Below are positions 35,325 through 64,000 of a stretch of DNA of 64,000 nucleotides, one piece after another (positions within the stretch are counted from its first letter, which is position 1; every line of letters starts with the position of its first letter). Both the position numbers and the translations under genes were made by a program. The notes under the pieces were generated by a model. That model worked only from the letters and a program-made list of their open reading frames with translations. It did not search any database and was not told the DNA's origin. The DNA comes from Octopus vulgaris (lineage: Eukaryota), in NCBI GenBank assembly GCA_951406725.2, contig OX597828.1, positions 65,906,001-65,970,000 on the forward strand, given 5' to 3'.

Positions 35325-36022
35325 TAGTGATTCTCAACCAGAGTCCATATGGCCCCCGAGGATCCAGATAAGATTTAGGAGCAGGAGATCCATGCAACAA
35401 AATAAATTGGGAAATCCACAATAGTATTTTAAAGACCTGAACAAATTTTGCTTTAGATGTATGTAATGCAAGAAACAGCTGGGTTTCTTTCTCTAATATT
35501 TTCATAGTTCAACCTACACAAGTTAATGTCATCATCATCATCGTTTAATGTCCGTTTTCCATGCTAGCATGGGTTGGATGGTTCGACCGGGGTCTGGGAA
35601 GCCAGGAGGCTGCGCCAGGCTCCAGTCTGATCTGGCAGTGTTTCTACAGCTGGATGCCCTTCCTAATGCCAATCACTCCGTGAGTGTAGTGGGTGCTTTT
35701 TACGTGCCACCGGGACAGGTGCCAGGGGAGGCTGGCAACAGCCATGATCAGTTGGTGGTTTTTACGTGCCACCGGCACAGGTACCAGGGGAGGCTGGCAA
35801 TGGCCACGATCGGTTGGTGGTTTTTACATGCCACCAACACAGAAGCCAGTCAAGGTGGCGCTGGCATCGGCCATGTACGGATGGTGCTTTTTACGTGCCA
35901 CCGGCACAAATTTAAAAGAAGTATCTATGAAACTAGTTTTAAAACAAATGGCTATAGGGATCCACCAGAATAAAATAGCCATTAAAGGGGGTCTATAGAT
36001 AAAAAATGGTCAAGAACCCCTG
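35325..36022. mobile_element. hAT-type MITE containing a family-C element
   Basis: tagtgattctcaacca ... tggtcaagaacccctg ends; related to 25297-25666. Confidence 0.7.
35529..35907 (-). mobile_element. RTE-tail element, family C, with about 60-bp internal repeats
   Basis: (cat)n tail, family-C body, four repeats of a tttacgtgccacc-like motif. Confidence 0.85.
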
Positions 36023-55893: not shown

Positions 55894-55965
55894 GGCTCGT
55901 TGGTCTAGGGGTATGATTCTCGCTTTGGGTGCGAGAGGTCCCGGGTTCGAATCCCGGACGAGCCC
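55894..55965 (+). tRNA. tRNA-Pro (anticodon TGG)
   Basis: GGCTCGTTGGTCTAGGGGTATGATTCTCGCTTTGGGTGCGAGAGGTCCCGGGTTCGAATCCCGGACGAGCCC; acceptor GGCTCGT/ACGAGCC, anticodon arm CTCGC-TT-TGG-GT-GCGAG, intact T arm. Confidence 0.98.
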
Positions 55966-60672: not shown

Positions 60673-61380
60673 AATTCATGTGGCAGAAGAAGTACCCCAA
60701 TAGAAAGATTGAAAATTTACTTATTCAAATAGTTGATTAATATAGATTTTGAACACATACAAACATTGGCATTCCTACAGATGTGTACCCCACCCTGACC
60801 TTGTTACAATATTTGTTGAAAATTTCTTTAAAAGTATCCATTTTTCTGGAAGCTATGAGGTGAAAAAAAAAAGAATCATAAATTTTCCAAACTTTTTCAT
60901 AAAACGATGCCCCACCCATCATTTCGAAGGCCGTGGTGAAAAACAAATTCCCTTTCAAAACAGAGAAATTCCAACGTATGTAAACTTCCTGGTCCGGAAC
61001 TCCTTTCTTCACCCCTTCAGAAAACATTTTCCCAACAAATTCCTTTATGAACGTAATCTATGCAGTTTGAAAGGTATTTGTATAAAATTTCATTAAAAGA
61101 TAATCATTTTCCTGAAAGTTATTAGGAAAAAAATTTGGGTCGTATGAATTTTCCAAAACTTCTCTCCTCACCCTCGGAAAAATTCTTTTCAACAAATCCT
61201 TATATATTCTGAATCTACAGAATGTTCAAAATTTTGATAAAAGGTCTCCAATTCCCTGGGTTAATATCTAGTTTAACACCAGGCCACCAAAAAAAATGTA
61301 AAAGGTGTAAAAGAATGTAGTAAACGAATCTGAAAAACAAAATTTGCGCAAACGAAGCGGGGGTGGAGAGAGGACTTTTG

Positions 61381-62245
61381 GAAAATTCACACAATCCAAT
61401 TTTTCCCCCTCATAACTTTCAGGAAAATGGATATCTTTTAATGAAATTTTAGATACAAATACCTTTCAAATGGCATAGATTACAATTATAAAGAAATTTG
61501 TGGGGAAAATTTTGAGATGATTTTGGGAAAATTCACACAATCCAATTTTTCCCCCTCATAACTTTCAGGAAAATGGATATCTTTTAATGAAATTTTAGAT
61601 ACAAATACCTTTCAAATGGCATAGATTACAATTATAAAGAAATTTGTGGGGAAAATTTTGAGATGATTTTGGGAAAATTCACACAATCCAATTTTTCCCC
61701 CCTCATAACTTTCAGGAAAATGGATATCTTTTAATGAAATTTTAGATACAAATACCTTTCAAATGGCATAGATTACAATTATAAAGAAATTTGTGGGGAA
61801 AATTTTGAGATGATTTTGGGAAAATTCACACAATCCAATTTTTCCCCCTCATAACTTTCAGGAAAATGGATATCTTTTAATGAAATTTTAGATACAAATA
61901 CCTTTCAAATGGCATAGATTACAATTATAAAGAAATTTGTGGGGAAAATTTTGAGATGATTTTGGGAAAATTCACACAATCCAATTTTTCCCCCCTCATA
62001 ACTTTCAGGAAAATGGATATCTTTCAATGAAATTTTAGATACAAATACCTTTCAAATGGCATAGATTACAATTATAAAGAAATTTGTGGGGAAAATTTTA
62101 AGATGATTTTGGGAATATTCACACAATCCAATTTTTCCCCCCTCATAACTTTCAGGAAAATGGATATCTTTTAATGGAAGTTTATACAAATCCCTTTCAA
62201 ATGGCATAGATCACATTTATAAAGAAATTTATGGGGAAATTTTTC
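61381..62245. repeat. Tandem array, 146-147-bp unit, about 5.9 copies
   Basis: Units start at 61381, 61527, 61673, 61820, 61966 and 62113 and are nearly identical; a diverged inverted copy lies at about 61020-61155. Confidence 0.95.
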
Positions 62246-62774: not shown

Positions 62775-63280
62775 AGGAATTACAACTGTGTTTCGTGGTC
62801 TGCTACCACAACAGCTCCTTTATAGGATCCAGTTAGCTCAAGACATCATCAGGAGGAACCACGTCCGGCCCCTACTCCTCTACCGTTTTGACGTGGCGGG
62901 GCCCCCGCTTTCGGAGGTGTCTTCAGTTCTGGTGTCGGGTGCATGTCTTCTTTCTTCTGTTCCCTGGCCTCTTCGATGTATCGTCAGTGAGTGTCAGCCG
63001 GTGACTGACTGACTTGTCAAATTTTTCCTTTTAAATACCTGCCGCTAGGCTCCAGCAGGTAATCCCAGCAAGTTGTCATGTGACACTGTCTCACCTTAAC
63101 TGACTAGTGAAGGCACGTAGTCTTAGCCCGTGCATTCTCTAAACGACTGTCACCTGTCAGTCAGCGAAGCTGATTCAGTGTCAGCTTGTCTCACCTAGTG
63201 ATGTTATTTCCTACCAGCATGCTATGACTTTCAAGCCATTTTTGGTCTTCTCGCTTCAGCCATATATAGAAGCTGGCTTT
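62775..63280 (-). mobile_element. Non-coding repeat carrying the hammerhead motif (Penelope pLTR-like or retrozyme-like)
   Basis: GC/CpG-rich block whose end is also present at 33444-33626; TATA-like tatttaaaa on the minus strand near 63030; class and right boundary are inferred. Confidence 0.45.
62783..62890 (-). ncRNA. Putative hammerhead ribozyme (type III topology, long stem II)
   Basis: Minus strand: GTA|GAGGA-loop-TCCTC-CTGATGA-50 nt-CGAAAC; stem I closes exactly between the NUH triplet and CUGAUGA; stem III is weak. Confidence 0.6.
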
Positions 63281-64000
63281 TTACAGTATTTTCTCTTCTT
63301 GAATTTTCACCAATTTGAACTTTTTGATTATTTTGTTCTTTGTTTTTCTGACACACACATCAAAATACACTTTCCTCCCTAAGATGCATTTTTGTTTACG
63401 TGCACTCACACAAATAATGTCCCCTTGCACACCCCATCCTACATAAAACTTACTTGACACCTTTACCATTCACCTGACAATTACACACTGACCAACATCC
63501 TCCACACTCCCACTAACACCACCATTTTATACACGTACACGAATCTGTATACAGTCTGAGATCTTTCTGACCAGAGACATTAAGTCATTCTCCACAGCCA
63601 TCCCTAACAGCAACAGCCTATCTCCCACTCAGCACCACCACACTCCTTCACTAAGCTGAGCTCATCTTAACCCTCAATTACTTTTCTTTCTCTGGAGAAT
63701 TTTACAAACAGTGGGATGGCTAAGGAAACTAAGATGAATCCCAATCATGCAAATTTCTTTGTAAACCACATTGAAGAGCAAATCTTTGCCCAATCCATAT
63801 GACCCTTCCAGAGTTGCATGCTCAATGTATTGAGGAGTGAGTCAGTTGTACTACTCTCATCTTGATTGTAAATATGAGATCATTGATTATAGCTAAATTA
63901 CTCTCTATGGCAACAACAGAATTTTTTTCTTTTGATACTGAACTGCAAACAGCTTGTTTGTCATTGACGATATCTCTTATGCAATTAAGAATAATTTGGG

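What the first reader, a model, noticed from the sequence alone, without database searches (positions are those of the whole stretch)
62783..62890. Type III-topology hammerhead ribozyme with an unusually long stem II in a mobile repeat
Seen: the minus strand reads aaacg-GTA-GAGGA-gtaggggccggacgtggt-TCCTC-CTGATGA-tgtcttgagctaactggatcctataaaggagctgttgtggtagcagacca-CGAAAC-acagttgta. GAGGA/TCCTC closes stem I exactly between the GUA triplet (62883-62881) and CUGAUGA (62852-62846). The 50 nt before CGAAAC (62795-62790) fold by eye into an extended stem (gtct/agac, gcta/tagc, aac/gtt, tcct-ataa-agga). Established: CUGANGA, GAAA and NUH form the hammerhead core; Penelope-like elements and metazoan retrozymes usually carry small type I hammerheads. 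Inference: a closed stem I and a long stem II are atypical, so this could be an undescribed ribozyme-bearing retroelement family. Caveats: only two clean stem III pairs are obvious and the base of stem II is imperfect. An upstream CTGAAGA...caaaacggta and a downstream GTA-GAGGGG allow dimeric or type I alternatives.
Basis: partly seen in the sequence, partly recalled or inferred. Interest (0 to 1): 0.8.

Follow-up and report, generated by a model that had tools for sequence, protein, structure and literature searches.

The report
Split-core hammerhead ribozyme in LINE tails
The flagged stretch is a broken copy of an RNA fold conserved in the tails of a family of jumping genes; intact copies hold all parts of a self-cutting hammerhead ribozyme in an order not found in the papers searched, and it likely lets these elements copy themselves from a circular RNA.

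Summary
The letters are real, but the type III fold is wrong. The motif is the 3' tail of a 5'-truncated, high-copy non-LTR retrotransposon (RT plus restriction-like endonuclease, likely HERO clade). The window copy lacks six bases, including the true GAAAC, that 29 of 29 other copies have, so it is predicted dead.

Intact copies, four other families in this genome and two metagenome relatives share one architecture: Pc - hairpin P0 - stem IIa - GUH - stem I - IIb - GAAAC - CUGANGA - Pc. Across six lineages 137 of 138 cells pair and 18 of 23 pairs covary; only N7 and H17 vary in the core. A seventh lineage fits out of sample. This is the S-G-C order of Eckert 2023, but opened between A9 and G10.1, which that paper assumed cannot be interrupted; a zero-nucleotide four-way junction bridges the gap.

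Long insertions have no fixed 5' end and run through an exact 3'-to-5' junction and the cleavage site (12 of 30 and 8 of 29 copies), as expected from a circular or multimeric template. Cleavage and circles are untested. No description was found in nine literature searches or in Rfam.

The parts
62776..63283 (-). 5'-truncated copy of an RLE non-LTR retrotransposon (family A): last codons of the ORF plus the 3' UTR
   Evidence: fixed 3' end near 62776, variable 5' ends; longer copies continue into an RT / CCHC / PD..ELT ORF; unit 3916 bp
62918..62932 (-). 5' strand of closing helix Pc (core part 62923-62918)
   Evidence: 23 of 24 cells paired over six lineages; pair probability 0.96 in the window copy
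62904..62917 (-). Hairpin P0, abutting Pc and G10.1 with no spacer (one mismatch in this copy)
62898..62903 (-). Stem II 5' strand (G10.1 first), placed upstream of the cleavage site and not joined to A9
   Evidence: 30 of 30 cells paired, three positions with changes on both sides, G10.1-C11.1 invariant
62890..62896 (-). 5' strand of helix I' (stem I / stem II bridging helix); partner at 62865-62859
62881..62885 (-). Stem III strand and GUA triplet; predicted cleavage between 62881 and 62880
   Evidence: GUH in 7 of 7 lineages, H = A, C or U, never G; cleavage itself untested
62875..62880 (-). Stem I strand 3' of the cut; partner at 62858-62853
   Evidence: 30 of 30 cells paired, all five positions covary
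62866..62872 (-). Stem II 3' strand (62872-62867), followed by the 6-nt deletion that removes G12-A13-A14-A15.1-C15.2 and the next base in this copy
   Evidence: 29 of 29 other copies hold six more bases here; window gives no descriptor hit
62846..62852 (-). CUGAUGA core segment; A9 leads directly into Pc
   Evidence: CUGANGA in 7 of 7 lineages, N7 takes all four bases
62829..62845 (-).
62776..62800 (-).
   Evidence: a clean hairpin in older subfamily copies; 3' ends ragged by 0-5 nt along the tandem continuation

Best explanation
The finding is a deleted, predicted-dead copy of a conserved RNA fold in the 3' UTR of RLE-type (likely HERO) LINEs; intact copies are predicted to be a hammerhead ribozyme whose core is opened between A9 and G10.1, and they likely cut and re-join the element's RNA into a circle that the reverse transcriptase copies from an internal start. 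SHOWN: the conserved core, the covarying helices, the strand order IIa - S - G - C, the zero-nucleotide Pc/P0 junction, longer-than-unit insertions with an exact junction and no fixed 5' end, and ragged 3' ends that follow the continuation. INFERRED: (1) Pc stacks on P0, and stem II on the G12.A9 pair, as a four-way junction that replaces the A9-G10.1 bond. (2) A transcript of a partial-tandem copy is cut at two successive GUH sites into a unit-length RNA. (3) That RNA starts with the 3' half of the ribozyme and ends with the 5' half; four helices (Pc, II, III, I') join the halves, so the ends re-pair and ligate, by the ribozyme or a host ligase. (4) Target-primed reverse transcription starts about 110-125 nt downstream of the cut and may run more than once round, rebuilding the tandem overlap and removing the need for a protected 5' end.
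For: Core: CUGANGA, GAAAC, GUH, G10.1-C11.1, U16.1-A15.1 and G16.2-C15.2 are kept in 6 of 6 lineages and in family E, tested afterwards on the majority of 25 copies. Only N7 and H17 vary, the two core positions that hammerheads leave free (established knowledge). Helices: 137 of 138 cells pair and 18 of 23 pairs change on both sides; slid controls give 56-68 of 138 and cross-lineage pairing 48-73%. The lineages were chosen by protein homology and share 28-55% identity in the RLE domain. The descriptor gives 0 hits in 3.84 Mb of shuffled window. The S-G-C order with an I' helix and a 0-nt III-I' link cleaves in vitro (PMC10085705). Template: family C 12 of 30 copies cross the 3'-5' junction and 9 pass the cut site, with no 5' ends at either point; the junction has one length in 11 of 11 read; family A 8 of 29 cross and 6 pass the cut site. 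The two rounds of one locus share lineage variants (L262: 12 shared against L135, 5 different). 3' flanks follow the continuation for up to 10 nt, with the subfamily's own letters. In run X1 a 1283-nt contig closes on itself, keeps the ribozyme and lacks most of the ORF, depth 76.
Against: No cleavage, ligation or RNA end was observed; all runs laid were contigs and only guessed to be RNA. No natural hammerhead with a broken A9-G10.1 link was found in the papers read, so activity rests on analogy. The longest insertion seen is 1.53 units; none reaches two. A closed contig can also come from a tandem DNA array; the X1 deletion was not among 30 family C loci nor in the part of X15 read, which does not exclude it. 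In a Penelope-like element with similar partial tandems, hammerhead mutants still inserted in vitro and uncut RNA was the main substrate (PMC11167929). Within family A the downstream GAAAC is as conserved as the upstream one (42-45 against 39-42 of 46), so the case depends on the cross-lineage comparison. The anchors for the pair counts used the core motifs, families B, D and E are majority sequences, and seven related lineages are not independent draws. No clean target-site duplication was seen around four family C insertions.
Confidence: 0.6

Rival explanations
1. The ribozyme is real and cleaves, but the template for insertion is an uncut linear multimer, as in the Penelope-like element PAc. 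Cleavage serves something else: releasing the unit from host read-through, making a translatable 5' end, or limiting RNA life.
For: Partial tandems and internal starts occur in PAc without need of cleavage (PMC11167929). Insertions keep the cut site intact, and none reaches two units.
Against: A linear template cannot lengthen the overlap, and 5' ends reach about 1970 nt upstream of the junction with no common start. The closed contig in X1 is simpler as a circle.
Confidence: 0.22
3. Tandems arise by template jumping between linear RNAs, or by insertion into the start of an existing copy; the ribozyme is unrelated to them.
For: R2-type enzymes jump templates (recalled), and RLE elements can insert in tandem (PMC4640811 passages).
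Against: No solo copy starts at the junction (nearest +47, -22, -22). Junctions carry no added bases. Rounds within a locus share variants.
Confidence: 0.04
4. The first reader's type III monomer with a long stem II is the active form.
For: The motifs lie in S-C-G order in family A and are conserved among its young copies.
Against: No downstream GAAA in 4 of 6 lineages; stem II probability 0.0; those bases form covarying Pc.
Confidence: 0.02

Closest known systems
Type-SGC (HRIMA-1), CSG and GCS non-circularly permuted hammerheads (Eckert et al. 2023, PMC10085705; parts 1-6 of 8 read, two supplement searches)
   Same: Cyclic order S-G-C; 1-5-nt link from stem I to stem II; extra helix joining the far ends of stems I and II; 0-nt link from stem III to that helix in some members.
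   Different: Here the chain is opened inside block C (stem IIa comes first, CUGANGA last), which the paper assumed cannot be interrupted; two extra helices, Pc and P0, form a four-way junction there. [quoted passage not shown]
Penelope-like elements with pLTR hammerheads, e.g. PAc of Anolis (PMC11167929; passages and second half of main text read)
   Same: Hammerhead near an internal start of reverse transcription; tandem and partial-tandem copies; ragged tail.
   Different: The protein is an RT with C-terminal CCHC and restriction-like endonuclease, not GIY-YIG; the ribozyme is not a minimal type I.
Retrozymes of plants and animals (PMC6155905 and bioRxiv 10.64898/2026.07.22.740005, passages)
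   Same: Proposed double cleavage, circularisation and reverse transcription of a circle.
   Different: Retrozymes are non-coding and use type I or III hammerheads; these are 3.7-3.9-kb autonomous elements.
R2 and other RLE non-LTR retrotransposons; HERO clade (PMC4640811, PMC7650587, passages)
   Same: Single ORF with RT and RLE; 5' truncation; best solved-structure matches include R2 proteins; non-specific insertion as described for HERO.
   Different: R2 uses a self-cleaving ribozyme (HDV-like) to release its RNA from a co-transcript and has defined ends; here a hammerhead lies in the 3' UTR and no 5' end is defined.
Hairpin ribozyme four-way junction (PMC2777235, passages)
   Same: A natural four-way junction in a small ribozyme.
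   Different: Different catalytic class; here one arm of the junction would be the hammerhead core itself.

Membership tests
Hammerhead ribozyme | CUGANGA, GAAA and NUH core with A15.1-U16.1 | tested here: met
   7 of 7 lineages; not met in the window copy itself
Hammerhead ribozyme | Stems I, II and III in register with the core, with covariation | tested here: met
   84 of 84 cells paired; 10 of 14 pairs change on both sides
Hammerhead ribozyme | CUGANGA directly joined to stem II (block C intact) | tested here: not met
   Stem II partner lies upstream; the strand after A9 gives 0-4 of 5 pairs and never pairs at 10.1-11.1
Hammerhead ribozyme | Site-specific self-cleavage after NUH | not testable with these tools
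   Only contigs were available
Type-SGC hammerhead | S then G then CUGANGA, short I-II link, I' helix | tested here: met
Type-SGC hammerhead | Stem IIa 3' of CUGANGA | tested here: not met
Rfam hammerhead families | Covariance-model hit | tested here: not met
   None in the window or in seven intact or near-intact loci
RLE non-LTR retrotransposon | Single ORF with RT, CCHC finger and PD..E endonuclease; fixed 3' end, truncated 5' ends | tested here: met
   the CCHC and endonuclease motifs were read by eye, Pfam gave RVT_1 only
HERO clade | RT phylogeny with named HERO references | tested here: inconclusive
   No labelled references on hand. Relatives come from Branchiostoma, lamprey and teleosts; lancelet and pufferfish names stand among the HERO entries listed in PMC7650587. 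The label itself is recalled.
Penelope-like element | GIY-YIG endonuclease | tested here: not met
   No such Pfam hit; RLE-type motif instead
Retrozyme | Non-coding short unit | tested here: not met
   Units of 3738 and 3916 bp with an RT ORF
Retrozyme | Circular RNA intermediate | tested here: inconclusive
   One closed contig in a run guessed to be RNA

The most novel reading that the evidence does not exclude
A whole clade of autonomous R2-related LINEs, probably including fish elements, replicates through a ribozyme-made circular RNA. It uses a seventh hammerhead arrangement in which the catalytic core is split at A9-G10.1 and held by a four-way junction whose stacking could act as a protein-controlled on/off switch. 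ORF-deleted circles of about 1.25 kb ride on it as viroid-like satellites.
Probability: 0.4. Interest if true: 0.95.

Novelty: new variant of a known kind. Interest (0 to 1): 0.85.

Why it matters
It would overturn the stated assumption that block C of the hammerhead cannot be interrupted, and explain why Rfam models and block-based searches miss a high-copy eukaryotic ribozyme. It would place hammerheads in RLE-type LINEs, for which the papers read link self-cleavage to HDV-like ribozymes. It would make rolling-circle retrotransposition testable in an autonomous LINE: family C is young (about 99.5% identical copies, open frames above 1100 aa). Because R2-type proteins are being developed for gene insertion, a relative that starts internally on a circular template would be of practical interest.

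Tried and rejected
Rfam: no hammerhead or HDV-like hit. Type I using the terminal GTA: no stem I partner, and its T is kept in only 32 of 46 copies. Type I using GTA-GAGGGG: flank. Upstream CTGAAGA as core: it overlaps the Pc strand and is absent in L082. Standard SGC stem II: rejected. Exact-pattern scans of viral and prokaryote contigs: 0. L084 and L152 lack a usable 3' UTR. Sequencing runs: no holder on record as RNA, so no statement on expression or RNA ends. Target-site duplications: none clean in four family C insertions or the window copy. The recalled tolerance of one extra base between A9 and G10.1 in a viroid hammerhead could not be confirmed from passages (title of the reference only). 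A search with an Ulp1-bearing relative gave no evident new family among its top loci, judged by place only. Nested folding cannot show stems I, II and III together (stem I probability 0.0 in intact L024), as expected for a double pseudoknot.

Full report
What is there. A search of the window's genome (2.8 Gb, 227 contigs) gave 1831 candidates, 40 scored and 30 fetched. The copies share a fixed end near 62776 and differ at the other end. Longer copies run into an ORF with an RT domain (RVT_1, E 1e-23), a CCHC finger and a PD..ELT endonuclease motif read by eye. Its solved relatives are R2 and L1 proteins; its 104 database relatives include lancelet, lamprey and fish proteins. So the window holds the last 508 bp of a non-LTR retrotransposon, likely HERO (label recalled, not tested against references).

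The window copy is broken. All 29 other copies have six more bases between 62867 and 62866, which restore a GAAAC between stem I and CUGAUGA. That model fails: no folding signal, pair probability 0.0 for its stem II, and no downstream GAAA in 4 of 6 lineages. Among 46 protein-selected family A copies (4 of 50 dropped for lacking the UTR) both GAAAC motifs are about equally conserved, so the family alone cannot decide.

Distant relatives decide it. I took 3' UTRs by protein homology: metagenome loci L082 and L083 and families B, C, D and E of the same genome. The RLE domains of A-E and L082 are 28-55% identical, and family B groups with fish elements (support 96/94). All show one order: Pc 5' strand, hairpin P0, stem IIa, helix I', stem III strand, GUH, stem I strand, short link, stem IIb, GAAAC, stem III strand, helix I', stem I strand, CUGANGA, Pc 3' strand. 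Over six lineages (real copies for A, C, L082, L083; majorities of 10 copies for B and D) 137 of 138 cells pair and 18 of 23 pairs change on both sides, against 56-68 of 138 when partners are slid. Family E, examined afterwards on 25 copies, fits by eye with all helices and zero-base junctions. In the core only N7 (all four bases) and H17 (A, C, U) vary. A descriptor for this order hit 58 of 185 loci then held (many redundant or without a UTR; 35 also with Pc and P0), not the window, and nothing in 3.84 Mb of shuffled window. Caveats: anchoring used the core motifs, the lineages are related, and no R-scape test was available.

Topology. The cyclic order S-G-C, the short stem I - stem II link and helix I' match the type-SGC hammerheads of Eckert et al. 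2023, which cleave in vitro at 0.007-0.19 per min (PMC10085705). That paper assumes CUGAnGA and its neighbouring paired bases must follow one another directly, giving six permutations. Here stem IIa is the first strand and CUGANGA the last, so the A9-G10.1 bond is missing; the strand after A9 cannot serve as stem II. Pc and P0 meet the core with no spacer in A, B, C, E, L082 and L083, and in D with one mismatch. That is the geometry of a perfect four-way junction. I infer that Pc stacks on P0 and stem II on the G12.A9 pair, holding A9 beside G10.1; the other stacking would switch the core off.

What it may do. The cut would fall 111-118 nt before the element's 3' end, yet insertions keep it. 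In family C, 12 of 30 copies found with a 5' query run through an exact junction from 3' end to 5' UTR; 9 also pass the cut site; 5' ends are scattered from +606 to beyond -886 with none at either point. Family A behaves alike (8 and 6 of 29; unit 3916 bp). Rounds within one locus share variants. 3' ends are ragged along the continuation. So the template has no physical end at the junction and is primed internally. A circle explains this: a doubly cut monomer begins with the 3' half of the ribozyme and ends with the 5' half, and four helices join the halves, which favours ligation (inference). In run X1 (RNA is a guess) one 1283-nt contig goes 3' end, junction, 5' UTR, deletion, 3' end and closes on itself at depth 76, against about 4-25 over most of the ORF; runs X5 and X8 show a similar deletion. 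Against this: no insertion above 1.53 units was seen among the few fetched whole, contigs show no RNA ends, and in the Penelope-like element PAc an uncut multimer is the main substrate (PMC11167929). I put self-cleavage of intact copies at about 0.8 and the circle at about 0.55-0.6.

Novelty. Nine searches of the paper library and Rfam gave no hammerhead in HERO or other RLE LINE tails and no hammerhead split at A9-G10.1. The library lacks most subscription papers and Repbase Reports. Passages only were seen of PMC4640811, PMC7650587, PMC13725137, PMC3088659, PMC6155905, PMC2777235, PMC2632901, PMC3376415 and bioRxiv 10.64898/2026.07.22.740005; PMC13725137 mentions variants with added helices in references I did not read, and the bioRxiv supplements were not seen. 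The Eckert supplement was searched by terms only and lacked the family A motif.

Verdict. Interest 0.85.

Noticed in passing
window 61368-62244: 147-bp tandem repeat, 6 copies, 97% matches, about 530 bp from the element's 3' end.
   Followed up: no
window 55894-55965 +: tRNA gene with TGG anticodon (Pro), 56.7 bits.
   Followed up: no
window 35688-35908: 62-bp tandem unit, 3.5 copies.
   Followed up: no
L135 (G000:C10:113820500-113830000) and L136-L147: Family C is very young: about 99.5% identical copies, open frames of 1100-1175 aa, 3' ends often at AT microsatellites; a ready test system.
   Followed up: partly
L201 (G000:C3:42228584-42231802): Internally deleted family C unit of about 1.43 kb that still begins 22 nt upstream of the junction, as if a deleted unit had itself been copied round.
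   Followed up: partly
L142 (G000:C11:84627400-84634600): Two family C copies head to head in inverted orientation sharing one breakpoint.
   Followed up: no
L083: The metagenome relative is also arranged as 3' UTR followed directly by what reads as the element's 5' UTR and ORF start.
   Followed up: partly
L151 3' UTR, about 40-90 nt after the ORF: Family E carries a tRNA-like stretch (T-arm-like motif) upstream of the ribozyme fold.
   Followed up: no
L155: A distant RLE retroelement ORF lies on a 4.5-kb contig filed in a Bacteroidales MAG, probably eukaryotic contamination.
   Followed up: no
P0061-P0084, P0085-P0103: Many longer relatives carry PF02902 or PF00443 protease domains; whether their tails hold the fold is unknown.
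   Followed up: no
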